DNA from: Mobula birostris
Lineage: Eukaryota
Assembly (NCBI RefSeq): GCF_030028105.1
Contig: NC_092393.1
Coordinates: 52,896,125 to 52,960,124, forward strand
Direction of reading: 5' to 3'
Length of the DNA: 64,000 nt
Shown: positions 2,656-62,585 of the stretch, piece by piece
How the letters are laid out: every line of letters begins with the position of its first letter
Position numbering within the stretch: the stretch's first letter is position 1
Program-made: the position numbers and the translations under genes
Notes under the pieces: model-generated
What the model was told of the DNA's origin: nothing
Database searches by the model: none
What the model saw: the letters and a program-made list of their open reading frames with translations, nothing else

Positions 2656-2883
2656 CAAATCATAAACACAAGAGATTCTGTAGATGCTGGAAATCCAGAG
2701 TTACATAAAAAGGGTTGGAGGAACTCAGCAGATCAGGCAGCATCTATAGAGACAAATAAACAGTCGATGTTTCATACCGAAACTCTTCTTCAGGACTGGA
2801 AAGGAAGTGGGAAGATGTATCCATTCCTCTCCATAGATACTGTCTGACCTGCTGAGTTCCTCCAGTATTTTGTGTGTGTTTCT
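2656..2883. mobile_element. Penelope-derived hairpin element with degenerate hammerhead (2761-2798, -)
   Basis: Inverted arms ggaggaactcagcagatcaggcagcatctat / atagatactgtctgacctgctgagttcctcc; flanked by aaagtcaatgcag / aaagtcagtgcag. Confidence 0.8.
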
Positions 2884-19440: not shown

Positions 19441-22330
19441 TAGCCTTTCTCAATCTTTTTGACCTGGAGGAACCCTTGAAATAATTTTGAAGTCTCAGAG
19501 AACCCCTGCATAAAAATTATTATATCTAGAGCTCACGGGTTAGCGTGATCAGTCAGTTGTAGATATAACAACCCAAAGCTCTTTTTAGTAGAGAATGAAT
19601 TTTTAGCCAACCTTTCTTTAAAAAAAACAGATAGTTAAGCTTGGCTTACCTTTCTTGAAACAACTCTTTCTTTCTCTTTCATAATTTTAAATGCTCCTAA
19701 GGCAAACATGATAAATTTCTCATTTCTGGGTCGAATGAAATGAGCACACACAGATTTCACCTTCAGCTGAAATGAGACAATTTCTATCCTTGCTTTTGAT
19801 AGTTGTTAAACAAGAAAAAGCTTGCTCGCACATGTAAGAAGTTGAGAACTGCAACAAAATGTTCATTGCTTTCCTGTGAATGGCAGGATGCTGTTCTTTC
19901 ACAGAAATCCAGAACTTGTCCACTGGCAGGTCAGTAAATCTCATCTTGAGTGCATGATCAGAGTGCACTCAAAGTTCTTCCTCTTCTCTCAAAGTCAAGT
20001 TCTCAGGCTGAGCAGAAGTTACAGAGGAAAGGGTCCCTCACCCAGTCATACACATGTTGAAAGGGAGGAAAAATACTGTTCAATTTTGTTCTGCAGTTCT
20101 TCCAGATGGTTTTCAATAAGAACCGAGACTTTTGATATCCATCCTCACTCTCAAGCCCAAGCAGCAGTGGAAACATTTCAAGATTTCCTTTTGCAACATG
20201 ATTTTTCTTAAGTTTCAGTTGCCTTTTAAATCCAAGAATCTTGTCACTTGAGTTCAACACATTTTCTCCAGAACCTCACAAAGACTTATTCAACTGATTC
20301 ATATGGTGAAAAATATCTGTTCAGTAGGCTAGTTTCTGCCTCCATTCTTCATCTTCAAAGCACTGGCCTACTATTTTCTTGAAAGTACTCCTGCAATTCA
20401 CCTTTCAACTCAAACACCCTGTTGAAAACTTTTCCTCTGCTAAGCAATTAGATTTCTGTATGTAGCAGGAGATTGGTGTGTTCTTTGTCCAGGTTTTCAC
20501 GGTTTTTTAAACATTCTCGAATGAATTGGTCTTAAAGCTACTGAATAATTTGCTTCCTGCATCCTTTTACTGACTGTGACTTTATTTTCAAAAACTTTAA
20601 TCTGTTTGTTTTAAGATTCCAACAGTCATTTAAAATAATCAGCACTTTTACGTGTCAATGGCTGTGATTTGTAGTTGTGTCTTTTCAATTTTGCTGGACC
20701 TTTTGCTATATTTGTATGGTTTTTTTTGCACAGACAAGGCACAATGGAATAGGACAACTTGGATCACCAGTCCATGTGAAACCCATTGATAAGTAGCTTT
20801 CATTGTAAAAATATGGTACCAGTGATTACTTTAGTTCCACCCACTGCTTTTGTCTCCAGGACCCAGAAGAGGCTGGTGGACTTCTGGGGCGACAGAGGGC
20901 ATTGGGTCTCTGCTGCGGTCCTGAGTCTAAAAATCACGGAGGGTGGTCAGTCAGTGGTGTGTGTGTGCACCCATCTGGTGGCTCTGCATCTCAGGACCCT
21001 GCAGAGATACCTACATAATGATCACCCCCTCCCCACCCCCAAGATGGCTCGCGCATGTGACTCACTTTCTCTACTGGGGACACTGCCTGCAGCTGGACAC
21101 ACGGCTTCCAGCGGACAGCGTCAGCTGCTGCCACCATTTTGAAGGGACTGCCTCGTTTTTACCGAGAGCTGTTGACGGTACGGGCTCTAGTCTCATCCGG
21201 ACACAGTGCTCCTGCGCCAGTGGAGGACGGTGTTCTAACTGCGAGGGGATTGGTCTCCATTCTGCCATTCTGTCACAGTAGCTGTGAGGAGGCTGGAATT
21301 GGTCATCGGTAGCAGACCTCGGGACACCACACAGGAGAGGGTCCTGCGTAACTTGAGCCGTCTCACAGGGATGCCTACTGGACCTTTCCATGACTCTCCA
21401 AAGCGTTTCTTTTACAGGCTACTCTTGCACACCTTTCACTTCCATGCCTTCGTTGCCGACCAGACTCGCCTTGGCGATCTGTTTTACCATCTGGCAGCGG
21501 AGGAGGTCCCCAGCGGAAATCTCTTTATGCAGAAGTCCTTCCCCTGTACATTGGGGACCTGGGGTGGAAGGTGTTGCATAGGGCAGCACCGTGCAACAGG
21601 TTTTTAAGCAGGTTCACTGACACCCCATCCACTTGTTCGTTCTGTGGTCAGGAGGAATCAGTGTACCATGCTTATATGAAGCGTCAGAGGTTGCAGCCCC
21701 TGTTTGTATGTCTGACGGGCCTGTTGCTCAGTTTCTGGTTACACTTCAGCCCCACGCTCCTTGTGTTCGGGCACCCAGTACAGAAGGGGGTGGGTTGCGA
21801 TGAGGATCTATTCGTGGGCTTGTTTCTGGGCCCAGCCAAGATGGCTGTTCACAGGTCTAGGTCTAGGTGGCGGAAAGACAAGGGCTCTGCCAGAGCCAAC
21901 TGCCTGCCCCTCTTCTGAGGGTACTTTTATGCCCAGCTATCCTTTGAGAGGGAGCATGCGGTCACCATGAGTACAGTGGGGAATTTCTAGGACCGGTGGG
22001 CCACCCAGGGAATTGACTGTTTTATAGACAGTAGTAATCATATTTTAATTTGAATTTATTTGCTGTCTTGTAAATATTTAACATTTGTACTTTGTGTATT
22101 TGTTGTGCAATTAAACTTTTATAGTTCTGTAAAAAAAAAGATGGACTTCTTTTGTGTCTATTGTTGCACTAGTGCAGTGAAATGACTCAGATGATTGCAA
22201 TTCTTCATCATTATCCTCATCAGAATTGTCTGTAGGCCTAGGCCTAGAATCCTCCTCTTCAAAAGACTGGACAGTCTTTAGAATGAAAATTTCCCTCTAA
22301 TTTTCTTCTACACTGTTAGTTTGTTCGCTC
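19441..22330 (-). mobile_element. hAT Charlie/Buster (SCAND3/ZBED-like) transposon remnant, interrupted by an L1/Tx1 fragment
   Basis: FWISVKEQHP…LLQFSTSYMCEQAFSCLTTIKSKDRN is a hAT dimerisation domain; TIR-like tagcctttctcaatcttttt at 19441; N-terminal remnant [16 protein letters not shown] spans the insertion. Confidence 0.85.
20809..22139 (+). mobile_element. L1/Tx1-clade LINE 3' fragment with poly(A)
   Basis: GC-rich ORF2 remnant with zf-RVT/CCHC-like CSFCGQEESVYHAY…RLQPLF; ends in an A-run at 22131-22139. Confidence 0.8.
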
Positions 22331-24198: not shown

Positions 24199-24425
24199 AA
24201 TGCAGGAGATTCTGCAGATGCTGGAAAATCCAGAGCAACACACATAAAATGCTGGAGAAACTTAGCAGGTCAGGCAGCATCTCTGGAAGGGAATAAATGG
24301 TCGACATTTTGGGCCGAGCTCGTTCATCAGGACTTGATGAAGTTTCTCAGCCTGAAACGTCGACTGTTTATTCCTTTCTATACATACTGCTTGAGCTGCT
24401 GAGTTCCTCCAGCATTTTTCGTGTG
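24199..24425. mobile_element. Penelope-derived hairpin element with two opposed hammerhead motifs
   Basis: Perfect 15-bp TSD tatctcagatgagta (24184-24198, 24426-24440); inverted arms. Confidence 0.9.
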
Positions 24426-24785
24426 TATCTCAGATGAGTATTTGTTTTGGTCATCTTACTGTAAAATGCTAGCAAACCTATTTATAATTGAATCTTAATA
24501 TCTATTCCTAAATGGTTGTTTGTTAGTGTGTAATTTTAATACATTGAGCTGCAGCACCCACAGCCATTAAATCCTTCACAGCACAGGAATTGTTGCAGCT
24601 TCATTATCAATTGTTTGCCTGCTGAATAATTAATATATATCCTACAGCATCAAAATAATTATGTGTTCTTAGTGCTGCGAGTGATGTATTAGGTCAGAAT
24701 CTGTGTCATTACTGGGTTAGGAAAGAATTGGCTCTAAGCACTCAACTAATGAGTTCCATAAAAGTGTAAAATAAAGGTATCGACG

Positions 24786-26603: not shown

Positions 26604-26722
26604 GGGTGTCATTTAACAGTGTCTACACTCAGATTTGGCGTGTTCTGCTTCACCTGGCAGCAGATCCTTTCCCAGAGGTCTCTGACCTTGCTATGAAGGT
26701 GCTCAACAACACTGCTTATAAG
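26604..26722 (+). CDS. RPTOR: Raptor internal coding exon (119 bp): (G)VSFNSVYTQIWRVLLHLAADPFPEVSDLAMKVLNNTAYK
   Basis: Translation closely matches recalled vertebrate Raptor GVSFNSVYTQIWRVLLHLAADPYPEVSDVAMKVLNSIAYK; polypyrimidine acceptor ttttctttttcacAG (ends 26603), donor AAG|GTACGG; phase 1 in, phase 0 out. Confidence 0.96.
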
Positions 26723-27710: not shown

Positions 27711-28686
27711 CACCCTGCCAAGATGCCTCAGGATCTTGTATGTTTCAGTCCACTGCCTCCGGTTTTAAACTTCGGCAGTGCTATCCTGGCTTGTCCAGCC
27801 ATTCCTCATAAGGCAGACTGTCCACTCCATATCTCAGGTCTGGCTTCTGAGGTATGCCAAATAATGCATCTGCTCAATAATTCATATCTCATATGTTTAT
27901 GTATGTGTACCCCTTACAATTTTAAATGCTTGCAAGAGGCAGTTAATTTTTATGACTCATCAGTTATAGTACTAATTCTGTCTTGCAAGAGAAAGTTACA
28001 CTAAAACACACAACTGTTCTTAAAGCTCAATATCCTCCCACAATCTGTTCACTAGAATTTTCCAGTAACTGTTGTTATGACTTCTTCCGATAAAATGAAT
28101 TTTGAGTACAAAATAGAAGCCATTCAACTTTTATTTTAAAAAAAATAAGTGGGAAGTTGTAATGAATGGCAGCAAAGATGCTAGAGTCACACACAAGTAG
28201 AATATGGGTTTCACAATTCTAGTGAGCCTGACCTCCAGTGCTGTCTGTGGAGTTCGCATGATCTTTCAGTGACCACATGGGTTTCCTCTGGGTGCTCCAT
28301 TTTCCTCTCACATCCCAAAGCTGTGAGTGCTGCTGGGTTAATTAAGCACAGTAAATTTCCCCTGGTGTGTAGATAAATGGTGCAAGATAGGGAGAATAAG
28401 AAATTGGAATCTGTATCAAGAGTGTTTGATGCCTCTAGGATCCCTACTAGTGTGTTTGGGAGAAGGAGCAGGGGAACTCACGGAAACCTATCAAATATTG
28501 AAAGGACAAGATAGAATGGATGTAGAGAGGATGTTTCCTATATTGAGGGGGTCGGGGACAAGAGGACATAGTCTCAGAATAGAAGAATGTCCCTTTAGAA
28601 CAGAGATGAGGATTTTCTTCAGACAGAAGGTGGTGAATCTGTGGAATTCATTGCCACAATGGCTATGGAGGCCAGGTCATTAGGTA

Positions 28687-30265
28687 CAGTTGCAAGAAAA
28701 TGTTTGTGAACCCTTTGCAATTAGCTGGTTTTCTACATTAATTACTCATAAAATATGGTCTGATCTTCATCTAAGTCAAGTAATAGACAAATGCACAAAG
28801 TGAACTAATAACACACAAACATTTGTACTACTCCTCATCAACACTGAGTACACCATTTAAACAATCACAGTCTATGTCTAACAAAGTATGTGAACCTCTG
28901 GGGTAATGCATTTTACAAAAGCTGTTTGAAGTCAGGTGTTCTAATCAATGCAATGAGATTGGATGTGTGGGTTGTTGAGGTGCCCTACCCTATAAAAAAA
29001 GACACATAACATCAGGTTACTACCAGAACCTACTCTTCTCAAGAAAGATGTATGTGCACCATACCTTGATCAAAACAGCTTTCAGAGGACCTTAGAAGAA
29101 GAATTGTAGAGATGCATGAAGCTGGAAAAGGTTACAAAATCATTTCTAAAGACCTGAGTGTTCATCAGTCCACAGTAAGAAATTGTCCAGAAACGGAGGA
29201 AATTCAGTACTATTGCTACTCTCCCTAGGAGCGGGAGTCCTGCAAAGATCACACCAAAAGCACAATGTACAATGCTGAAGGAATTGAAAAAGTACCCAAG
29301 GGGAACAGCAAAAGACCTGCAGAAATCTCTAGAACTTGTTCATGTGTCCACTATAAAAAACGCTGAACAAGAATGGTGTTCATGGAAGGACTCCATGGAG
29401 GAACCCACTGCTCTCCAAAAAAAAACATTGCTGCACATCTCAAGTTTGCAAAAGACCACCTGGATGTTTCACAATGCTTCTGGACAATATTCTGTGGACA
29501 GTTGATTCAAAAGTTGAATATTTTGGTAGAAATGCACACCGCTATGTTTGGAAGGAAAAGGGCACTGCACACCAACACCAAAACCTCATACCAACTGTGA
29601 AGCATGGTGGAAGAGCATCATGGTTTGGGGCTGCTTTGCTGCCTCAGGGCCTGGACAGCTTGCAATTGTTGAGGGAACAATAAATTCAGAATTGTATCAA
29701 GATATTTTATAGGAGAATGCCAGGGTAGTGGTCCATCACCTGAAAACTTAATAGAAGTTGACAACAGGACAAGGATCAAAAACATGAGTAAATTAACAAC
29801 AGACTGGTTTTTAAAAAAGAAAATTCATGTTTTGGAATGATCAAATCAGAATCCAGACTTTAACCCACATAAGATGTTGTGGCATGACCTGAAGAAGTCT
29901 GTTCATGCAAGGTATCCCAAAAATATTGATGAATGGAAACAGTTTTGTATGGAGGAATGGTCTAAAATTCCTCCTCACTGTTGTGCAAGTCTGATCAGCG
30001 ACTACAGAAAATGTTTGGTGGAGGTTATTGCTGCTAAAGGAGGTTCTGCAAGCTATTAAATACAAGGGTTTATATACGTTTTCCAACCCAGACTGTGATT
30101 GATTAAACAATGTGCTCAAAAAGACAAGAAAAGTACAATTGTTTGTTATTAGTTTAGGCGGATTGGGTTTGTCTATTGTTGTGACTTAGATGAAGATCAG
30201 ACCACATTTTATGAGTAATTAATGCAGATAATCACAAAGGGATCACAAACTTTTTCTTGCATCTA
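28687..30265 (+). mobile_element. Near-full-length Tc1 transposon (~1.6 kb), frameshifted transposase
   Basis: TA-flanked long TIRs cagttgcaagaaaatgtttgtgaaccc… / …gggatcacaaactttttcttgcatcta; fragments NILWTVDSKVEYFG, TVKHGG, LWHDLKKSVHAR…VIAAKGG. Confidence 0.93.
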
Positions 30266-30397: not shown

Positions 30398-31603
30398 GTT
30401 ATGGGGAGAAAGCAGGAAAATGCTGTTGAGGGTGATAATGAATCAACCATGATGGAATGGCAGAGCAGACTCAATGGTCTGAACAGCCTAATTTTGCTCC
30501 TATGTTTTATGGGTACTTGGTGATAGGTCGAAGGGCTACTTTGCATGTTGTATGACTGTAAATTACTGGAATAATTGAGGTGTTCTGTAAATACCTCCGT
30601 GTCTTCAGTGGTGTCAGTCACTTATGTAAAAGAGTATTATCTTTATGTGAATTGTGTCCAAATGGATTGTGTCACTTTATACCAGAGCATAACTCACGGT
30701 TGTAACAATTATCTCCCTTTGTGATTGCTGCTGGGTAAATGTGTCTCCTGCACGAATGCTTCCATAATATTTCCTAAGGCTAATGGACTAAATGTGTGGT
30801 GAAGTGAGACAAGATCTGAATCAAATGACTGCTTTATTTCACAGCATGTGGATGTACAGAGTGCTGGTCACAATCAAAATTCCTTATCCCACTCAGCTTT
30901 ACTTAGCTTCCCATATTTTAGGGAAATAATGAATTTGACTTTGTATTTCTATTTTTTGAATTCAACCATTAGCAGACAGGATCAGATTGCTGGCCTTAAG
31001 CTCATGCATTCTGCATTCCAACTGCCTGCAGTATTTGCTTACAGGCCAACTGATTATCCCATCTGAGAGCTAAATCAGCCAAAAGATCCAACCAAAAAGA
31101 AGTCCTGCTGAGTTCTACTGACGGATTTGTCATAGAAGCAGAAGTGTTGAAGGATCACTAAAATGTTAAATTTTCTTTCATTGTCTCCACTAATCCTAAT
31201 TTAAATTTGTCAGCCCATTTGAGGGCAAGAGCCTAGTTCTATGGTAACGCCTTGATGCTGTAACCCTTGATTAGTAAGGGTGTTGAAGGTTACGGGAAGA
31301 ATGCAGGAGAAGGAGGTCGATAGGGAGAGAGAGAGAGAATAGCCATATCGGAATAGCAGAGCAATCTCAATGGGCCTAATAGCCCAATTCTGCTCCAACG
31401 CCTTATGGTCTGTAGGGAGGATGAAACTGAATTAATGCAGGATTAGTGTAATTGTTAGATGGTCAACCTGGGTGATTCAAACAACCTGATTCTATGCGGA
31501 ATTATCCTTTTTCTTAGACAGCAATGTGGTAATGGCCAGATAATCTATTGACCAAGTTAACTAGTTTTTAATTGAACTGATTGACATGATGTCATTTGCA
31601 AGA

Positions 31604-32490
31604 CGCAAACACGAGGAAATCTGCAGATGCTGGAATTTCAAGCAACACACACAAAGGTTGCTGGTGAACGCAGCAGGCCAGGCAGCATCTCTAGGAGAAG
31701 GTACAGTCGACGTTTCAGTCCGAGACCCTTCGCCAGGACTAACTGAAAGAAGAGCTAGTAAGAGATTTGAAAGTGGGAGGGGGAGATCCAAAATGATAGG
31801 AGAAGACAGGAGGGGGAGGGATGGAGCCAAGAGCTGGACAGGTGATTGGCAAAAGGGATATGAGAGGATCATGGGACAGGAGGCCCAGGGAGAAAGAAAG
31901 GGGGGGGATCCCAGAGGATGGGCAAGGGGTATAGTGAGAGGGACAGAGGGAGAAAAAGGAGAGAGAGAAAAAGACTGTGTGTATATAAGTAAATAACGGA
32001 TGGGGTACGAGGGGGAGGTGGGGCATTAGCGGAAGTTTGAGAAGTGAATGTTCATGCCATCAGGTTGGAGGCTACCCAGACGGAATATAAGGTGTTGTTC
32101 CTCCAACCTGAGTGTGGCTTCATCTTTACAGTAGAGGAGGCCGTAGATAGACATATTGGAATAGGATGTGGAATTGAAGTGTGTGGCTACTGGGAGATCT
32201 TGCTTTCTCTGGCGGACAGAGCATAGGTGTTCAGCGAAACGATCTCTATCCCATGATCCCCTCATATCCCTTTTGCCAATCAACTGTCCAGCTCTTGGTT
32301 TCATCCCTCCCCCTCCTGTCTTCTCCTATCATTTTGGATCTCCCCCTCCCCCTCCCACTTTCAAATCTCTTACTAGCTCTTCCTTCAGTTAGTCCTGACG
32401 AAGGGTCTCAGCCCGAAATGTCAACTGTACGTCTTCCTAGAGATGCTGCCTGGCCTGCTGCGTTCAGCAGCAACTTTTATGTGTGTTGCT
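31604..32490 (-). mobile_element. Penelope-like retroelement: GIY-YIG endonuclease C-terminus plus inverted pLTRs with hammerhead motifs
   Basis: ORF 32026-32304 RFAEHLCSVRQRKQDLPVATHFNS…RLEEQHLIFRLGSLQPDGMNI; ~240-bp inverted arms; perfect 14-bp TSD tgtcatttgcaaga (31590-31603, 32491-32504). Confidence 0.93.
32391..32427 (+). ncRNA. Minimal type I hammerhead ribozyme motif (best-preserved sense-strand copy)
   Basis: AGTC-CTGACGA-A-GGG tctcag CCC-GAAA-T-GTC-AACT: core CUGANGA/GAAA, stem II, GUC site, stem I with one mismatch. Confidence 0.7.
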
Positions 32491-32764
32491 TGTCATTTGC
32501 AAGATCTTGACCAGTTCTAGTGGTGTCAAAGGTTCTGGGGAGAAGGCAGGAGAATGGGATGGAAAGGGAAAAGTCAATTAGCTGTGTTTAAAAGGCGGAA
32601 TCGGCTCCATGGGCCGAGTGGCCTAAATCTGATCCTATGTCTTATTGTCTTTTGTTGTCTGATGATAATGTCCTTACCCAACACCATCTCCCCAGCCATC
32701 AGTAAAGCCACCGTTCTGGAAGCATTTTGAGAAATTTGACAGTGTGACAGGACTAAACTGATCT

Positions 32765-33660
32765 CTTAGAACATAGAACAGTACCATATATGAACAGGCT
32801 TTTCATCCCAAGACTCAAGTTTGTTTGTAACGTGTAAATCAAAACAAACAGTGAAATGAATCATTTGCATTAACAGCCAACACTCCAGAGGGTCACCACA
32901 CGTCCCTCCCACAATGTCTTTGCCAATCATGATGCAAAATTAAACTGCTCCCAGCAGTCTGCCCATGATCAATATCCTTATATGTTCATGTTTCTGTACA
33001 AATGCCTCTTAAATGTCACTGTTACATCTGCTTCCACTTGGCAGAGTATTCCTGGCACCAACCACTCTCTGTATATAAAAACTTGCCTGAGACGTCTTTA
33101 AACATTCCTCCCTCTAACATTAAAAGCTGTGTCAACTCCTATTTGACATTACCACCATGGGCAAAAGGCGTTGACATCTACCCATAATCTATCAAAATTA
33201 TGCGCCTCTTATAATTTTACAAACCTATATCAGGCCTTGTGGTCAGCCTCCCATGAGAGAGAACAATCTTAGTTTGTCCGACCTCTTCTTACAGCTAATA
33301 CTCTCTAATCCAGGTGGCATCTCAGTAATCCTCTTGTGCACTCTTGCCAAAACCTCCTCATCTTTCCTACATTGCAGAAACCAGAACTGCACAAAAAATT
33401 TCCAAATGTAGCTAGCAAAGTTTTACACAGCTGCAGTGTAATTTCTCAGTTGCAGTACTCACTGTCCAACCAATGAAGGCAAGCATGCCATATGCCTTCT
33501 TTACCACCCTATCTACTTGTGTTGCCACTTGTATATTTGGACCCCAAGATCAATGCTCCTAAGAATCCTGCCTTGTACATTTGACTTCTCAAAGAGTAAC
33601 ACCTTACTTGTCTGGATTAAACTCTGTCTGCCATTTCTCCACCAATTAGCTCTAACTCTA
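32765..33660 (-). mobile_element. Old CR1 3' fragment(s)
   Basis: agaacatagaacagt tail; ccagaactgcac, gccttctttaccacc motifs. Confidence 0.65.
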
Positions 33661-33729: not shown

Positions 33730-35195
33730 GGTCACATGTCTTACTATAGTTCATGTTGACAGCGGGAGGTGTGGAGAGGCATGAAGAACATCACTGGCTT
33801 CAATCAGCCTAGCTGTAGTGCCTCAGAATGCAACTGTGAATGGGCTAATGAGTTAAACCAGTTGTTCAATAGGTTTGCCAATGCCCTCCTGTTCACTCCC
33901 CCCTCAGCACACTAGCCCAAGGAACCCAATGCTCTCTCAGTACCAAAGTCTCCCTTCCTCGCCCCCCCCCCCCAGTTGAACATATGGATTAACAACACAG
34001 GCTACCACTGTCTCCGCCTCATCCTTCCCCTGCACCTACTGACTGCTGTTGTCTCGATCTTCACCTCCCTAGCCCCCACCTTCCACCAGCTCCCCAGTCA
34101 TCATGGACTTGTGTTCACTACTGAGCAGGTAAGGAGGGCTCTGGGGAAGCTCAGACACGGCAAAGTATTGGGACCAGATGGTGTGAACCCCAAGACCTTG
34201 AAGGAGTGTGCTGAACAGCTGTGTGGAGTTCTCTAGCACATTTTCAATCTGAGTTTCAGCCTGGAAGGGGCCCCAACTGTGTGAAAAACATCATGTGTGG
34301 ACCCAATACCCAAGAAGGGCCAACTGAAAGTGCTGAATGATTACCATCCAGTGGTGCTGACCTCACACATCATGAAGACCCTAGAGAGGCTGGTCCTGGC
34401 TCATCTCCGACCCCTGGTCAGATCAGTCCTCGATCCCTTGTAGTTTGCATACCAGGAGTACATAGGAATCAATGATGCTGTCATCTACCTGCTGAACCAA
34501 GCCTACTCCCATTTGGATAAGCAGGGTAGAACTGTGAAGATCAAGTTTTTTGACTTTTCCAGTGCCTTCAATAACATAAAGCCCTCATTGCTGAGGAAAA
34601 AGTTCCGTTCAATGCAGGTTGGTACTCCCATTGTATCCTGGATAATGGACTAACTGACTGGCAGACCACAGTTTGTGTGGTTCAGCGCTGTGTGTCAGAC
34701 ATGGCTATGAGCAGCACTAGGGCCTCAAAAGGACTTAATTGGCTTCCTTCCTGTTTACCCTGTATACCTTGAACTTTAGGTACAACACTGAGTCATATCA
34801 TCTGCAGAAACTCTCTAATGACTCAGCAATAGTTGGGTATATAAAGGGAGGACAGGAGAATAAATATTGGGCCCTGGTGGAGGACTTTGTCAAATGGTGC
34901 AAGCTGAATCATCTGCAGCTCAACGTCAGTAAGACAAAGGAGATGGTGATGGACTTTGGAAAGACTAAGCCTGCATTGCTCCCTGTTACTGTTGATGGTG
35001 AGGGCATGGATATGGTGAGAACCTACAAGTACCTGGGGGTGCACCTGGATGACAGACTTGAGTGGAGCACCAACACAGAGGCTGTGTAGAAGAAGGGTCA
35101 GAGTCACCTCCACATCCTGAGGAGACTGAGGTCCTTTGCAGTATCCAGGTCTCTCCTTCACATGTCTACCAGTCCCTACCAGTCTGTTGTAGACA
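33730..35195 (+). mobile_element. Rex1/Babar LINE, decayed RT
   Basis: GPDGVNPKTLKECAEQLCGV; LFTLYT…NDSAIVG…WCKLNHLQLNVSKTKEMVMDF…YKYLGVHLDDRLEW; tail resumes 36128-36222. Confidence 0.9.
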
Positions 35196-36429: not shown

Positions 36430-38640
36430 ACTAGGCCTGTTTACAGAAACCCTGCCCATTTATCACCAGTATGCAACCTGTTGCACCAGAAGTTCCAGCA
36501 CCCTGGATCACTGCTACTCTACGACCACGTGTTGGCAAATTGGATCATTTGGCTGTGTTCCTGTTACCTACATGCAGACAGAGCCTAAAGAAGGCGGCTC
36601 CAGAGATCAAGACAACTAAGAGGTGGTCATGGGAGGTTACAGGATTGCCTTGAGTCAGCGGACTGGGCCGAGTTCAAGAACTCATCTGAGGACCTGAATA
36701 ACTACACCAGAGTCATTACAGACTTCATCTAGACCTGTGTGGATGAGTATGTCCCCATAAAATCGTTCAGGGTTTTCCCCAGTCAAAAGCCCTTTTTGAA
36801 CAATGAAATCTAGAACCTGCTGAGAGCCAGATCAGAGGCATTCAAGTCTGGAGATCAAGAATACTACAGGAGGTGTAGGTATGATCTCTGGAAAGCCATC
36901 TCTTGGGCAAAGTGGAGATCCCTGACTAGACTGGAATCAACAGGGGATATTTGACAGCTGTGGCAGGGTTTGAATGCCGAAACTACCTACAAAGCTAAAT
37001 CTTGCGACATAGGGGCAGCAGACCTTCACTTCCAGATGAGCTGAATGCCTTCTGTGCTCGCTTTGATCACCAGACCAGGTAGGAACCGTCGTGCATCCCC
37101 ATGTCTCAGTATCTGAACATGACATGCAGACTGCCTTCAAGAGAGTGTATCCAAGGAAAGCATCCACTCTAGAAAGAGTAGCTGGCTGAGTACTGAAGGC
37201 CCCCTGTGCCAACTGGCTAGTTAGTGTATTCATGGATTTCTTCAAACTCTTGCTCTGGCAGTGTGTGATACCCATCTGCTTCAAGCAGGCTTCTGTCATA
37301 CCGATGCCCAAAAAGAGCGTGGTAACCTGTCTAAATGACTATTGCCCAGTGGCACTTACATCCACAGTGATGGTGCTCTGAGAAGCTGGTGTTGAAGCAT
37401 TTCAGCTCTTGCCTGAATGGTGACATGTATCTGCTCCAATTCACATACCAAAGCGACAGGTCTGGAGCAGATGCTATCTTGTTGGCTCTTCACACAACCC
37501 TGGAACATCTGGACAGCAAAGGAGCATACATCAGGATGCTCTACATCAATTACAGCTCGGCATTTAACACCGTGTGCAATTGGATCCTGGATTTCCTCAC
37601 TATATTCCAGTCAGTTTGGATTGGCAAAAACATCTCCTGCACAATCTCCATCAGCACGGGAGCACTGCAGGGTTGTGTACTTCACCTCCTGGTCTACTCC
37701 CTTTACACCTGTGACTGTGTGGCTAAGTACAGCTCTAACACAATCTATATGTTTGCTGATGACACCACTGTTGTGGGCTGTATCAAAGGTAGTGATGAAT
37801 CAGCACACAGGAGGGAGAATGAAAACCTGGCTGAATGGTCAAACTTCACACTCATTGTGAATAAGACCAAGGAACTGATTGTAGACTTCTGGAGAGGGAA
37901 ACCAAAGGTCCATGTGCCAGTAATCACCAGAGGATCAGAGATGGAGAGAGGCAGTAACTTGAAATTCCTGGGTGTCACTATTTCAGAGGACCTGTCCTGG
38001 ACCCATCGTGTAAATATTATTGTGAAGAAAGCACAACAGCACCTCTACTTCCTGAGGAGTCTGGGGAGATTTGACAAGTCACCGAAAACCTTGGCAAACC
38101 TCTGTCGATGCGTGGTGGAAAGTGATCTGACTGGCTGCATTGCAGCCTGGTATGGGTACACCAGTGCCTTTGAGCGGAAAATCCTACCAAAGGTAGTGGA
38201 TTCAGCTCAGTACATCATGGGTAAAACCCTCCCAACCATTGAGTGCATCTACATGAAATGTCGCCATAGAAAAGCAGCATCAATCATCAAAGATCCTCAC
38301 CACCCAGGCCATGCTCTTTTCTGCTGCTGCCATCAGATAGAAGGTACAAGTGCCTCTGGACTTGCACCACCAGGTTCAAGAACAGTTACTACCCCTCAAC
38401 CATCAGGCTCTTGAACAAAAGGGATACTGCACTCATCTAAGGACTTCCTTGTTTCATTCTTGTTATTTAATTCTCTTCATTTTTATCTGCATTTACACAA
38501 TTTGTTTACAGTTAACAGTTCCTGTTGTTTACATTTTACATTTACTGTTCTATAGAATTGCTAAGTTTGGCCCACAAAAACAGAATCTCAGAGTCATGTG
38601 GTGACGTATATGTATCTGATAATTAATTTTACTTTGAACA
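36430..38640 (+). mobile_element. Rex1/Babar LINE (RT pseudogene; longest ORF in window, 37389-38414)
   Basis: NYSSAFNT, GALQGCVL, MFADDTTVVG, NKTKELIVDF, KFLGVTISEDLSW; stops upstream; actttgaac tail. Confidence 0.93.
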
Positions 38641-40355: not shown

Positions 40356-41619
40356 TACTCAGTGGCCACTTTATTAGGTACACTTGTACACCTGCTCGTT
40401 AACACATATATCTACTCAGCCAATTGTGTTCAAGGTTCAAGTTTAAAATACATTTGTTATCTAAAGCATGTATACTATCTACAACATTGAGATTCATCTC
40501 CTTAGAGGCAGCCACAAAACAAAGAAATCCTATAGAGCCCATTTTTTAAATAGGCTGTCAAACACCCAGTGTGCAGTACTGCGCTCAGTTCTGGTCACCT
40601 CACTACAGGAAGGATGTGGAAGTCATAGGGTGCAGAGGAGATTTACAAGGATGTTGCCTGGATCGGGGAGCATGCCTTATGAGAATAGGTTGAGTGAACT
40701 TGGCCTTTTTGCCTTGGAGTGGCGGAGGATGAGAGGTGAGCTGATAGAGGTGTATAAGATGATGAGAGGCATTGATTGAAATGGCTAACACGAGAGGGCA
40801 CAGTTTTAAGGTGCCTGGAAGTAGGTACAAAGGAGATGTCAGGGGTAAGTTTTTTTACACAGAGAGTGGTGAGTGCGTGGAATGGGCTGCCGGCGACGGT
40901 GGTGGAGGCGGATACAATAGGGTCATTTAAGAGACTCCTGGATAGGTACATGGAGCTTAGAAAAATAGAGGGTTATTGGGTAACCCTAAAGCAAGTACAT
41001 GTTCGGCCCAGCATTGTGGGCCAAAGGGCCTGCATTGTGCTGTAGATTTTCTGTGTTTCTATTAAAAAAACAAATTGTGCAAATAACAAAAGCAAGCAAA
41101 CAATTGAAGTTTACAAAATGAGTACACAGCCACAAAGCCAGTCATCATGGGGCATTTACTCAATGCAGAAAAGCATGTCAAGAGGTTCTTCAGGACAGAC
41201 GTTAGAATGGGGAAGAAAGATAATCTAAGTGACTTTTACCGTGGAATGATTATTGGTGACAGATGGGATGGTTTGAGTATCTCAGAAACTGCTGACCTCT
41301 TGAGATATTCAAGGACAGTAGTCTCCAGAGTTTACAGAAAATAGTGCGAGAAACAAAAAAAAAAAATCCAGTGAGCTGCAATTCTGTGGGTGAAAATGCT
41401 TTGTTAATAAAGGAGGTCAGTGGGGAATGGCTAGCCAGGTCCAAGCTGCCAGGAAGGTGACAGGAACTGAAATAACCATGTATTCCACAGTGGTGTGCAG
41501 AAGACCATCTCTGAATGCTCAACATGTCGAATCTTGAACAGTTGCAAAAGAGCATGAAAATCCACTGAGTAGGCGCTTTATTAGGTAGAGCCGGTTCCTA
41601 TTAAAGTGGCCACTGAGTG
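40356..41619 (+). mobile_element. Tc1 deletion derivative containing two nested insertions
   Basis: TIRs actcagtggccactttattagg / cctattaaagtggccactgagtg-TA. Confidence 0.85.
40577..41062 (+). mobile_element. CR1 3' fragment (innermost nested layer)
   Basis: RVQRRFTRMLPG…YENRLSELGLFALEWRRMRGELIEVYKMM; tail tgtgtttctat. Confidence 0.9.
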
Positions 41620-47542: not shown

Positions 47543-47827
47543 TCACGAGAAAATCTGCGGATGCTGGAAATCCAAAGCCACACACACACACACACACACA
47601 CACAGTGCTGGAGGAACTCTGCAGCCAGGCAGTATCCGTGGAAAAAAGTAAACAGTTGATGTTTTGGGCCAAAACCCTTCATCAGGACTTCCCCCTAAAT
47701 TCTTAATCTGAATTCTTCTCCCTTTCTTTCTAGTCCCGATGACGGGGTCGGCCCGAAACATTGACTGTTTACTCTTTCCCATAGATGCTGCCCGGCTTGC
47801 TGAGTTCCTCCAGCATTCTGTGTTGTG
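47543..47827. mobile_element. Penelope-derived hairpin element, hammerhead motifs at 47653-47689 (-) and 47732-47767 (+)
   Basis: Inverted arms; imperfect TSD gtgctaactacta / gtgctgaccacta. Confidence 0.85.
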
Positions 47828-48069
47828 GTGCTGACCACTACATCCCCATGCAGCCCTGTTGGTGAATAACTCTCTGCTAAGGAGGAAAAGTTGTCAACTG
47901 CATTATAGAATCCTCCTTCACTAAATCACCCTTCCTTGACCATGGGTGTCACAGTGGGTAGTGATGTTATCTCACAGCTCCATTGATCCAAATTGAATCC
48001 TGACCTCTGGTGTTAATTTGAATTTGTACATTCTCCATATGATTCTGAGTTTCCTCCCAAGAAAACATT

Positions 48070-53895: not shown

Positions 53896-55459
53896 CAATA
53901 TTTTCATCTTGGACCATTTAAAGAGAAACTTTATCATAGCTAAGGAAATAACTAACCTCAATTTACTATGAAAGATGTGAAAGGTGAAGCAAGGTGAGGT
54001 AGAAGTTTAGTAGATGGGGGAAGGGAGGGATAAAGTAAGAAGTTGGGAGGTGATAGGTGGAAAAGTTAAAGGGCTGAAGAAGAATGAGCCTATTAGGAGA
54101 GGAAAGTGGACCTTGGGAGAAAGGGAAAGAGAATGGGCACCAGAGGGAGGTGATGGACAAGCATTCACTATTTATTCCTCTTCATCAATGCTGCCTGACC
54201 TGCTTAGTTCCTCCAGCCATTTGTGTGTGTGTGTGTTGATCTGGATTTCCAGCATCTGCAGAATCTCATATGTTGACAAACTTGGCAGGTAGTGCTGACC
54301 AGATGCCTGTATATTCCTTTTCCACATATCTAACAGGGAGGAAAAAAAAACAGAATGAAAGAGCAAAGTACAGCAGAACATTGCTGTGCATTAAGAAAAG
54401 GAAATATGGCAGTGCAGATGCTGGCTTCCTTTATTGAAGCCCCTCAGTATTTTAGGAGCAACTTCTTCCCCTCCGCCATCAGATTTCTGAATTGACAGTG
54501 AACCAACACCTGAACACTACCTCCCTATTTTAACTCTTCTTGCATTTTTAATTTATTGTTTATCTATATTTCTTATTGTACTTTATAGTTATTATGTATT
54601 GCATTTACTGCTGACACAAAACTACAAATTTCATGACATAAGTCAGTGATATTAAATGTGATTCTAATTCTGACAACTCTATTGACCATAATTGCAGTGT
54701 ACATACAATAGATTTTAAAATCAGTGTAGAGGCAATCTTTTTCCTCTTACAAGAGAAATCAATATTGTTTCTGTGGAATCGTGTTCTTATCAACTAGATA
54801 ATGTTTACTGATGGGCAGAACATGGGATGTTTTAAGTACAGGGGCAATTTGTGTTTTTTTTCTCATTTTATCACATGTTTCAATTGAGCTTCATGCTGCC
54901 ATTATTGTAGTTATGTGCTTGCTAATGCAAGTTTTAATAGTAGCTTATTCTAGTCATCTCTAATGTATAAATATTGCGATTCGTGATACAGAAAAAATGG
55001 ACTAATTCTTACTATGTCAGAAATTGCATTTACTGTACATTTAAATTTAGTGTTACAAGCTAGATTTATAGAAGCAAAGTTAAATTCAAAAATTAGCTAT
55101 TTACATCAAATGAGTCAGGAGTGAAATGAATGTAGATATGCCAGCAATTCTTTTTTAAATTAGTTTTAAGTATCTCAAAGGTTCAGTATGTCAAAGACTG
55201 ATTTGCATTGTTAATTAGAGGAGAAAGTGCAGATGAGAGCACCCTGGTCATTGTCCCTCAGTTGGACTCACTTTCTTTACCAACTATCTTCATTTCATAT
55301 CAATCAAGGCAACTATTCAAGATGCAAGATTGTTTATTATCATTTCCTGTACACAAGTGTAAAAGGAACAGAATAATTCTTACTCCAGATCCGATGCAGC
55401 TCAAAAAAAGGACACAAAAGATACTTCCTACAAAGCGAAACTGAACGTCATGAATGGCG

Positions 55460-56175
55460 GTGATGCTTCATTCCCAGATAAGCTCAATGCCTTTAATCCA
55501 TGCTTTGAAAGGGAGAATAAAACTCCCTGCAGCACCTGGTGACCCAGTGATAGCTGTCTTGGAGGCCGATATCAGGCTGTTTTCAAGAGGGTGAACTATC
55601 GTAAGGAGACAGGCCCCGATGAAGTACCCAGTAGGGCTCTGAAAACCTGTGCCAACCAACTGGCAGGGGCGTTCAAAGACATTTTTAATCTCTCATTGCT
55701 ACAGTCAGAAGTTCCCACCTGCTTCAGAAGAGCAACAATTATACCAGTTGCCTAGAAGAGCAGGGTGAGCTGCATTAATGCCTATCGTCCAGTAGCACTC
55801 AAATCTACAATGATAAGGTGCTTTGAGAGATTGGTTATGGCTGGAATTAACTCCTGTCTCAGCAGGTACCAAGACCCACTCTAGTTTGCATATCGCCACG
55901 ATAGGTCTATGATGGATGTGATCTCAGTGGCTCTTCCCATAGCTTTGGTCACCTGGACATGTATGTCCGTGTGCTGTTTATTGACTATAGCTCAGTGTTT
56001 AACACAATTATTCCTACAGTTCTGATTTTAAAACCTCCAAAACGTGAGCCTCTCTCTATCCCTCTGCAACTAGACCCTCGACTTCCTAACCAGAAGACCT
56101 CGATCTGTGTGGATCAGAAATAAGACCTGCACCTCGCTGATATCATCACTTAGGGATGTGTGCTGAGCCCATCAT
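55460..56175 (+). mobile_element. Rex1/Babar internal RT fragment
   Basis: Similar to 37025-37690 (gcctatcgtccagtagcactc, ttgactatagctcagtgtttaacac). Confidence 0.8.
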
Positions 56176-56599: not shown

Positions 56600-56803
56600 A
56601 GACAACACACACAAAATGATGGAGGAACTCAGCAGCCGGGCAGCAGCATCTGTGGAAAAGTGTAAACAGGACTGGTGAAGGGTCTCAGCCTAAAACATTG
56701 ACTGTTTACTCTTCTCCATAGACCCTCCTGACCTGCTGAGTTCCTCCAGCATTTTATGTGTGTTATTCTGAAATTCCAGCATCTGCACAATCTCTCGTGT
56801 TTA
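56600..56803. mobile_element. Penelope-derived hairpin element about 90 bp upstream of the RPTOR acceptor
   Basis: ggaggaactcagcag / ctgctgagttcctcc inverted arms; degenerate hammerhead ctggtgaagggtctcagcctaaaacattgactg. Confidence 0.8.
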
Positions 56804-59957: not shown

Positions 59958-62084
59958 ACTATTTCATGAGGTTTAACAAAAGGAAGAGCTCGCATCATAA
60001 TCTGTAATACTGAACATCAATTAAGATGGAATAAAAGACTAGTGCAGGTGTGTTTCACTGTGGTAACTGCACTCACTATTTCCACAAAGAATGAAGATTT
60101 ATCAAGATTGCATTGTTTCCAAGTTCACATCATTTTATAGACCAGAGCTGAACTCTGCAGCACACTCCATCTGCCACAGCTTAATGCCCTTTACAAATCC
60201 ACTACCTTCCTCTCGTCTGGGGTACATGCCTTTTTCCACTAATCCTCCCGCAAAGGCTCCTTACCAAAGACCAGCTGGAAAAATTGTCTGTCTTCCCATG
60301 TTTTACGCTGTCAATGAGCCTTCAACATGGCATCAGTTTTTTATGTTTAGAGTAAAAGTGAAGACTGCTGGTCCCATAAATGCCGAACCAGTTTAGCTCA
60401 TTTAAGCCCAGACGTCAAGGAAAAACATGATCAGTAAAACTGGGTATAGAGCCACAAATTGAATGAATTAGGGTCAGGTTTATGTTCGAGCCCAGACAGT
60501 TCAGCCATAAAATATATGAAAATTATGAAAGCATGAGTTTGTGAAATTAATTTTGATGTGCTGGATCCCTGGAGAACATAATAACTGTTGATCATTACTT
60601 TAAGGCTGTTATTTGACATGTACCGGACTCCATTCTGGAGAGAGTCCCCTCGTGTGCGACCTCTGGCAATTTTATTTACTAATTTATAGATACACTACAG
60701 ATTAGGCCCTTCCAGAACTTTGAGTGTGCCACCGGCAATCCCTAGCCTTATCTCAGGATAATTTACTAACTGGTACGTCTTTGAACTGTGGGAGGAAACC
60801 CACACAATCCACGGAGAGGACAGACAAACTGGGATGGTGGAATTAAATTCTGAATTCCAACACCCCGAGCTGTAACAGCATCGTGCTAACTACTACGCTA
60901 CCCTGGAAGCCCAAATTTCATTTCAATGTATTTTATTAAGCATGTGTCCATCACATTAAAATCTGCAGGAATTTGGCAGGCAGTGCTGAATCTTTTGTAT
61001 ACTTCTCCTGTACAATTGAATGAAAAATAAGTCTCTAAAGCGCCCCCCTAATCTTGCACCATTGGGATAAATTGGAAGTTTGCCATTCTTGAACCAAATA
61101 AAGTTTCAAAAACAGTGTATGTTGGAAACACTCAGCTGATCAGGCTGCATCTGTGGAGAGAAAAACAAGAGTTAGCATTACTTATCAAAGATTCTTCATC
61201 AGAAGCCAGTACTTTGCTTTTGTTTCAGATTTTCAGCATCTGCAGCTTTTTGATTTTCATAGAGTGCTTCCGTTGCCGACAAAGCAACCGTTCCACTTCA
61301 GTATCTATAATGCATGTAAGTCTCTGACATAAACACACGATTGAGGAGCTATAAACTGCATCAGATTGTTTGTTGGCGTAATTCTTCCACCACCTTTTAT
61401 CCAAGCAGTGCTGTATTAGTTGCCAAGAATTATTTGTGCCACAAATATAAATAGCTCCTTTGTTCCCTGACTTGAATGTAACTTCTAAAGTCTATTTCAT
61501 GTCTTCACAAGTTTTACTTACATGAAATGATTGTTAAAATAGAAAAAATATTCAGAACTGACAGCAAAACTAACCAAACTTCTTATACAATAATCTTCAT
61601 GGAACTCCAATCCATGCTGTTTGCTCACACATTACCCTTCAGTGGGAGCACCCAGCATCACATCCAGCTCACATAAGTAGGGTAAGCACATTCTTTGGTC
61701 ACTTGCTATAGGACCCCTGTGTGTAATGAGCTCATTGTCTCAACCCAATACGGAAAAGCATTGTTTCAATTCTCTGAATCTACATTAACCTCCACTACTA
61801 CTGATGTTCGTCTCATACATCTCACAGGCCAAACTTTCTCCTGTTGTCTTTATGGAAAAGGACAACCACATTTACCAGCCTCCAGTCATCCAGTCCTTAA
61901 TTAGTGATGTAAAAATCTCAGTCAGAGTCAAGGAGTCTCTCCCCTTCCCTCCCACAGCAGCAAGAGTTTAAGTTTATATGACCATGGATATTTATATACT
62001 AAGGCATTGACCGCCTCTTTATTCACGAAACTTCCACCTTTGTTTTCGCTTCCAGCTACCTTATTATGGAAAGGATGAGGAATC

Positions 62085-62585
62085 TTTAGAGAGGGTGCAG
62101 AGGAGATTTACCAAGGTGCTGCCTGGATTAGAAAGCATGTCTTTTGAGGACAGGTTGAACAAGTTAGGGCTTTTCTCTTTAGAATGAAGGAGGATGTGAG
62201 GTGACTTCATAGAGGTGTAGATAGAGTGGATGGGCACAGACATTTTCCGTGGCTAATCTGAAAGGACAAATTTTAAGGTGATTGGAGCAAAGTATAGGTA
62301 GGTTTTTAAACAGAGTGGTAAGTGCATGGAATGCACTGCAGGGGATGGTGGTAAGAGCAGATACACGAGGGGCATTTGAGAGGGGTATAATCTTAAGGTG
62401 ATTAAAGGAAATTCAAGGGGTATGTCTGAAGTAGTTTTTTTACACAGAGTGGAGGGTGCATGGAGCACCCTACCCGTGGTGGTGGTAGAGGTAGCTACAT
62501 TAGGGGCATTTAAGAAACTTTTAGATAGGCACATGGATGATAGAAAAATGGAGGGCTCAATGGAAGGGAAAGGTTAGATTGAATA
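62085..62585 (+). mobile_element. CR1 3' fragments
   Basis: agagagggtgcagaggagatttaccaagg…; duplicated 3' segment. Confidence 0.75.

What the first reader, a model, noticed from the sequence alone, without database searches (positions are those of the whole stretch)
31604..32490. Penelope insertion with inverted pLTRs, each carrying a minimal hammerhead ribozyme motif
Seen: a perfect 14-bp TSD bounds 887 bp that folds back on itself (arms about 31640-31880 and 32245-32490) around a GIY-YIG endonuclease C-terminus. Each arm holds a hammerhead-like motif: 31705-31740 (-) AGTC CTGGCGA AGGG TCTCGG ACT GAAACGTC GACT and 32391-32427 (+) AGTC CTGACGA AGGG TCTCAG CCC GAAATGTC AACT. Established: Penelope-like elements carry minimal type I hammerheads in their pLTRs, with a tiny palindromic stem III that favours dimeric cleavage, and form inverted pLTR structures. 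Inference: this is the parent-type element of the short hairpins in the window, and one motif is in the RPTOR sense orientation.
Basis: partly seen in the sequence, partly recalled or inferred. Interest (0 to 1): 0.7.

Follow-up and report, generated by a model that had tools for sequence, protein, structure and literature searches.

The report
Decayed Penelope insertion with inverted arms
This is an ordinary, truncated copy of a very common Penelope-type jumping gene, likely inside an RPTOR intron; its two self-cutting-RNA motifs carry mutations and are predicted to be zipped up against the opposite arm, so they likely do not cut the gene's RNA.

Summary
Observation confirmed: exact 14-bp TSD, 887-bp insert, arms 90% alike, a 72-aa endonuclease C-terminus and both hammerhead-like motifs. 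It is a 5'-truncated endonuclease-bearing Penelope-like element. Longer copies carry the RT, GIY-YIG with CxxC, and a CX4CxxC linker, which points to Neptune type rather than Penelope/Poseidon (motif only, no tree). One arm has the 37-nt tail, the other lacks it: the published inverted-pLTR structure. It recurs here in 20 two-arm loci of 58, with a TSD in 11 of 14 testable. The family motif is an intact minimal hammerhead: 12,888 exact matches, 0 in the control. Both motifs in this copy are damaged, and in RPTOR-sense RNA the plus motif is predicted to pair with the other arm. Being antisense to each other, they cannot form the dimer. The window's short hairpins are an older sister subfamily (69-79%), not offspring. 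The scan noted such elements before: 1035 notes in at least 57 genomes. Interest low.

The parts
31590..31603 (+). left target-site duplication (14 bp)
   Evidence: (D3)
31604..31640 (-). 37-nt 3' tail, on this arm only; true 3' end of the element
   Evidence: alignment; the same 3' end (within about 10 nt) in 29 of 30 loci
31641..31879 (-). sense pLTR / 3' region (left arm)
31705..31740 (-). minimal hammerhead motif, damaged: core A6 is G (31733), G10.1-C11.1 is G-U (31717), third stem II pair is G-A (31719)
31880..32025 (-). 3' UTR between stop codon and arm; not duplicated
32026..32244 (-). [quoted passage not shown]
32246..32490 (+). inverted, tail-less pLTR arm, joined head to head with about 1 nt overlap
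32391..32426 (+). minimal hammerhead motif in RPTOR sense, damaged: palindrome ACGU is AUGU (32419), first stem I pair is C-A (32423); 32410 is a loop change. Both look like CpG decay
32491..32504 (+). right target-site duplication; its first two bases also fit the element
26604..26722 (+). context: RPTOR coding exon (about Raptor 801-840), AG/GT bounded, 4.9 kb upstream

Best explanation
This is a single, 5'-truncated insertion of an abundant endonuclease-bearing Penelope-like retrotransposon, likely of Neptune type, whose inverted arm was likely made at insertion by priming reverse transcription from both nicked DNA strands, and whose two hammerhead motifs are likely inactive passengers. Shown: TSD, one tailed and one tail-less arm, head-to-head junction, family ORF, base changes in both motifs. 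Inferred: the endonuclease cut the two strands 14 nt apart; one 3' end primed at the outer start site (tail) and was copied about 640 nt into the endonuclease codons; the other primed 37 nt further in and was copied 245 nt; the two cDNAs were joined. Each arm has since drifted about 4% from the family. In RPTOR pre-mRNA the arms are predicted to form a long duplex that blocks the ribozyme fold. The family's intact ribozyme would act, if at all, in same-sense pLTR-ORF-pLTR tandem transcripts.
For: Family: RT motifs and GIY-YIG in long copies; CX4CxxC linker in 5 of 6, CxxC inside GIY-YIG in 5 of 6. Shared 3' end, variable 5' ends in 30 loci. Two-arm, 3'-ends-outward loci: 20 of 58; TSD of 13-17 nt in 11 of 14 testable (10 over the script threshold, plus this one by eye; 0 of 200 random pairs); in all 11, one arm is tailed and the other ends about 35-42 nt short. 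PMC11167929 (parts 1-2 read): a PLE protein cleaves and extends both strands and starts RT at two sites that bracket the tail. Arms of one insertion agree at 139 of 189 informative cells (74%; shuffled mean 57%, max 69%, 300 shuffles) and share 12 rare variants in 7158 positions (rate 0.0017; shuffled max 0.0006). Same-sense upstream pLTR joined to the ORF start in 8 of 30 loci, 5 with the motif. Motif intact in 19 of 75 copies but in neither arm here. Fold: 38 of the 43 positions 32388-32430 pair with the left arm in the MFE (36 at probability about 1.0), none inside the motif.
Against: No cleavage, expression or editing was measured. For this copy the arms agree at only 2 of 6 informative sites and share no rare variant, so a common template is not shown for it; 26% discordance overall exceeds the post-insertion drift of about 4-5%. 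Gene conversion between arms could also give arm similarity. 3 of 14 testable two-arm loci had no TSD, two of them with symmetric ends. Loci were top hits to my queries, not a random sample. Non-CpG motif columns vary less than flanks (30/2100 vs 351/13415), but flanks include subfamily variants. Co-transcriptional folding could let the plus motif fold briefly, although the left arm is made first. Neptune rests on a motif, no tree. The next RPTOR exon was not found, so the intronic position is inferred.
Confidence: 0.8

Rival explanations
1. The inverted arm came from fold-back self-priming or a template switch after ordinary one-sided TPRT (or from an antisense template), not from second-strand priming.
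For: PMC3846280 (passages) proposes self-priming on an antisense template for head-to-head PLE inversions; junction overlaps of 1-10 nt in several loci; arms of one insertion are more alike than random.
Against: Fold-back would make the arms symmetric up to the junction; here about 365 nt (31880-32245) have no partner and the junction is no palindrome. The outer end of the inverted arm falls about 37 nt inside the 3' end in 11 of 11 TSD-bounded loci, as expected of an RT start site rather than a random stop.
Confidence: 0.25
2. The plus-strand motif is an active or co-opted ribozyme that cuts RPTOR pre-mRNA, alone or paired in trans with one of the genome's many intact motifs.
For: Its CUGANGA and GAAA boxes and stem II are intact; it is in RPTOR sense; intact partners are abundant; a PLE ribozyme can be protein-assisted (PMC11167929).
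Against: Palindrome and first stem I pair changed; predicted buried in duplex; intact minimal motifs show no monomer and low dimer activity in vitro (PMC4209133, parts 1-2 read); this arm is as diverged as an average copy (11 changes in about 240 nt).
Confidence: 0.04
3. The 887-bp fold-back is itself a replicating non-autonomous unit and the parent of the short hairpins.
For: One other locus (L002) matches over nearly the whole length at 87%.
Against: L002 has other inner ends (arm to -251 vs -280, sense part running further 5') and its own TSD; inner ends differ among the two-arm loci; the short hairpins are 69-79% identical and their centres differ among 29 distinct loci (by eye).
Confidence: 0.03
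4. Two independent insertions side by side, or an assembly artefact.
For: The family is very abundant; arms are no closer to each other (7.6%) than to other copies (about 4%).
Against: One perfect TSD bounds both arms; junction without spacer; same geometry at many loci; the arms differ, unlike an assembly duplication.
Confidence: 0.02

Closest known systems
EN+ Penelope-like elements with inverted 5' pLTR and one-sided 30-40-bp tail (PMC8557442 text and Fig. 2 legend; Adineta Pen2a_Av, PMC3846280; passages read)
   Same: Inverted 5'-truncated arm adjacent to the 5' end, tail on one end only (37 nt; 31 in Pen2a), TSD, hammerhead in pLTR
   Different: Here the ORF is cut down to 72 codons, there is no direct upstream pLTR, TSD 14 vs 9-10 bp
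Neptune clade PLEs (PMC8557442, passages)
   Same: RT then C-terminal GIY-YIG with CxxC, CX2-5CxxC linker, DKG and GxKF motifs in family copies
   Different: No (TA)n target seen; Nematis also has the linker; no phylogeny made
Minimal PLE hammerheads (PMC4209133, parts 1-2 of 4 read)
   Same: Type I, extra nucleotide between 9 and 10.1, G10.1-C11.1, palindromic 15.2-16.2; that paper already reports pairs 100-700 bp apart on opposite strands (here about 650-690 bp)
   Different: Stem II is 3-4 bp rather than 7-8; both motifs in this copy are damaged
Poseidon of Anolis, PAc (PMC11167929, parts 1-2 of 4 read)
   Same: Two start sites bracketing a tail; both strands cut and extended; the ribozyme is not needed for insertion in vitro
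   Different: Other clade; that paper did not model inverted insertions in the parts read
L1 twin priming (recalled, no call)
   Same: Inversion with TSD, two primed strands
   Different: L1 inverts the adjacent upstream part of one RNA; here the same 3' sequence is copied twice

Membership tests
EN+ PLE | single ORF with telomerase-like RT and C-terminal GIY-YIG | tested here: met
   family copies: DKG, YxDD, GxKF, GIY-YIG; PF01541 weak, below cut-off; window fragment 92% identical to L036
EN+ PLE | CCHH motif, two Cys between GIY and YIG | tested here: met
   CxxC in 5 of 6 long copies; His residues seen by eye downstream; the CxxC part is truncated away in the window copy
EN+ PLE | pLTRs in partial tandem or inverted, with optional 30-40-nt tail | tested here: met
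   37-nt tail; inverted loci; same-sense upstream pLTR in 8 of 30 loci
EN+ PLE | variable-length TSD | tested here: met
   14 bp here; 13-17 in 11 of 14 testable loci
Neptune clade | CX2-5CxxC linker between RT and EN | tested here: met
   5 of 6 long copies; the sixth has a deletion there
Neptune clade | RT phylogeny | not tested
   no reference PLE proteins fetched
Penelope/Poseidon clade | linker Zn-finger absent | tested here: not met
   linker present (definition PMC8557442)
minimal type I hammerhead (family motif) | core boxes, G10.1-C11.1, palindrome, stems I and II | tested here: met
   19 of 75 copies intact; 12,888 exact matches vs 0 control
minimal type I hammerhead (family motif) | covariation in stems | tested here: inconclusive
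   none within this family, only CpG decay. Between motif families yes: with the second stem II pair forced off G-C, 146 matches vs 3 control; 17 of 30 fetched are Watson-Crick (A-U 10, C-G 5, U-A 2), 2 wobble, 11 mismatched, and a second family has stem I AGAA/UUCU. A-U can arise from two transitions, and copies are not independent
minimal type I hammerhead (the two motifs here) | intact core and closing pairs | tested here: not met
   minus: A6>G, G-U at 10.1-11.1, G-A in stem II; plus: AUGU palindrome, C-A at first stem I pair
minimal type I hammerhead | self-cleavage after GUC as dimer | not testable with these tools
   needs in vitro assay
non-LTR retrozyme | non-coding head-to-tail tandem units, each with a hammerhead | tested here: not met
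   inverted, ORF-bearing, single unit; definition from bioRxiv 10.64898/2026.07.22.740005 (part 1 and passages)

The most novel reading that the evidence does not exclude
Inverted PLE insertions are made by twin priming: both nicked strands prime at the two fixed start sites, usually on RNA from one source element, so thousands of such copies in this genome are a natural record of a dimeric insertion complex. The one-tailed/one-tail-less rule (11 of 11 TSD-bounded loci) and excess allele sharing between arms support it. Other agents of this scan reached the same idea on other genomes; this copy adds nothing special.
Probability: 0.55. Interest if true: 0.45.

Novelty: new member of a known kind. 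Interest (0 to 1): 0.2.

Why it matters
The copy itself matters little: one decayed member of a family with over ten thousand intact motifs. At family level, the genome offers a large sample for two open questions: how PLEs make inverted ends, and whether intact sense-strand minimal hammerheads are selected against in introns. A predicted 245-bp duplex in RPTOR pre-mRNA would be an A-to-I editing substrate like inverted Alus (inference), but the same holds for thousands of such copies.

Tried and rejected
Rfam scan: no hammerhead family, two chance hits. Pfam on the 72-aa fragment: nothing. ESM Atlas: no answer. Sequencing runs: no RNA holder listed, 17 rows, all contigs of small share. Laying four runs on 31300-32800 gave 6,264-71,568 contigs per run, evidently from other family copies, none spanning the locus, so nothing on expression, editing, RNA ends or an empty site; it only shows the family in other organisms' runs, most carrying the majority base at 31719, 31733, 32419 and 32423. 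Haplotype test on this copy's arms: inconclusive, no linked haplotype for either arm. tblastn for a PLE ORF near the other motif families: hits in 6 of 30 loci, all of the main motif type, none for the two other types. Lünse et al. 2017 not held; seen only as cited in PMC6765202 (passages). Literature searches listed no paper on this family in cartilaginous fish; three searches of an open-access library do not show absence, and Repbase/Dfam could not be checked. No supplements were opened; those of PMC4209133 (motif lists) may bear on novelty. No earlier notes near this place. L025 was left out because it is the reference copy.

Full report
Observation. The 14-bp TSD (31590-31603, 32491-32504) is exact and occurs only twice in the window. 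The arms are 31641-31879 and 32246-32490, 90% identical with a 6-nt indel; the left arm has 37 more bases at its outer end. The minus strand holds 72 codons ending at 32026. Both quoted motifs are there. An RPTOR exon lies at 26604-26722 on + and the Raptor_N exons lie upstream on +, so the plus motif is in gene sense. About 500 residues of Raptor remain to be encoded, so the element is inferred to be intronic; I recognised no further exon among the window's 279 plus-strand frames of 48 aa or more (by eye).

Family. The genome is 4.0 Gb; the search had 10,379 candidates, of which 40 were scored. The 30 loci fetched share the 3' end (29 within about 10 nt) and vary at the 5' end. Six longer copies give an RT with DKG, YxDD and GxKF motifs, a CX4CxxC linker (5 of 6) and a GIY-CxxC-YIG domain (5 of 6); the window fragment is 92% identical to one of them. 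Pfam support is weak (E about 0.015, below cut-off). By the definitions in PMC8557442 (passages) the linker excludes Penelope/Poseidon and fits Neptune or Nematis; I made no tree. Of 30 loci found with the 5' ORF region, 8 have a same-sense pLTR joined to the ORF start (5 with the motif) and 9 an inverted upstream arm. That the repeat looks like those of rays and sharks is my recollection, not a tested result.

Structure. Of 58 loci (59 less the reference), 20 have two arms with 3' ends outward. Six run off the fetched stretch; of 14 testable, 11 have a TSD of 13-17 nt (0 of 200 random pairs reach the threshold), and all 11 pair a tailed arm with one ending about 35-42 nt short. Inner ends differ between loci. 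These are top hits, not a random sample. This layout is published: inverted 5'-truncated copy with one-sided tail (PMC8557442, PMC3846280, passages), and minimal hammerheads 100-700 bp apart on opposite strands (PMC4209133).

Mechanism. PMC11167929 shows a PLE protein nicking and extending both strands and starting at two sites that bracket the tail. That fits each outer end being an RT start, with a head-to-head join inside. Across 20 arm pairs, arms agree at 74% of informative cells against 57% when shuffled, and share rare variants about eight times more often. This favours a common source in many cases, but gene conversion is not excluded, and this copy's own arms are uninformative (2 of 6). 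This step is inferred.

Ribozyme. The family motif meets the min-HHR description of PMC4209133. It is intact in 19 of 75 aligned copies; variation is mostly CpG decay (14.7% at CpG columns, 1.4% elsewhere) with no compensatory change inside the family. The genome holds 12,888 exact intact matches, 0 for the reversed pattern. Other motif families have different, complementary stems, which supports the fold for the class but not for this copy. Here the minus motif has G at core A6 and two changed stem II pairs; the plus motif has AUGU for ACGU and a C-A pair next to the cut site. That such changes lower activity is established knowledge, recalled and not measured here. The motifs are antisense to one another. 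Folding the RPTOR-sense strand gives 245 arm-arm pairs, a longest perfect helix of 57 bp, and the plus motif paired with the left arm rather than with itself. Even intact minimal motifs cleave poorly and only as dimers (PMC4209133), or need the element's protein (PMC11167929).

Short hairpins. Five related stretches in the window are 69-79% identical. Relatives of the one at about 24200-24430 are hairpins in all 30 loci fetched (29 distinct), with different centres and flanks. They look like independent insertions of an older sister subfamily by the same process, not offspring of this copy.

Verdict. A real, well-read but ordinary feature: a new member of a known kind. After forming this reading I found that the scan holds 1035 similar notes in at least 57 genomes, several with the same twin-priming idea; these are not independent evidence. 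Interest 0.2.

Noticed in passing
window 2664-2880, 24200-24430, 47544-47832, 54188-54262, 56600-56802: Older sister-subfamily pLTR remnants; four look like hairpins with one tailed arm, two with a visible TSD by eye (about 13 and 15 nt); motifs decayed.
   Followed up: partly
L099, L101, L102, L111, L125, L126; L103, L105, L122: Two other minimal hammerhead families in this genome, with longer stem II and different stem I; no PLE ORF within 1.5 kb of these nine.
   Followed up: partly
G000:C17, 0.26-80.7 Mb: 13 of the 100 listed matches are a GTG...CAC stem II variant on one contig (counted by eye): perhaps a local expansion with a compensated pair.
   Followed up: no
L034 1630-2584 (reverse-strand coordinates): A 955-bp head-to-head palindrome of the same family with almost no spacer, 96% arm identity.
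   Followed up: no
L035, L133, L137, L140, L153: A duplication of about 190-210 nt in the 5' ORF region shared by a subset of copies (7 of 40 scored hits have a second match).
   Followed up: no
window 29070-30056 (+): Broken Tc1/mariner-like transposase, recognised by eye in the translations.
   Followed up: no
window 20780-21915, 28342-28680, 34285-35086, 37190-38411, 40465-41042, 55543-56120, 62011-62574: LINE reverse-transcriptase-like fragments, recognised by eye.
   Followed up: no
window 31279-31326 and 32522-32569: A 48-nt direct repeat (77%) on both sides of the element, likely remnants of another common repeat.
   Followed up: no
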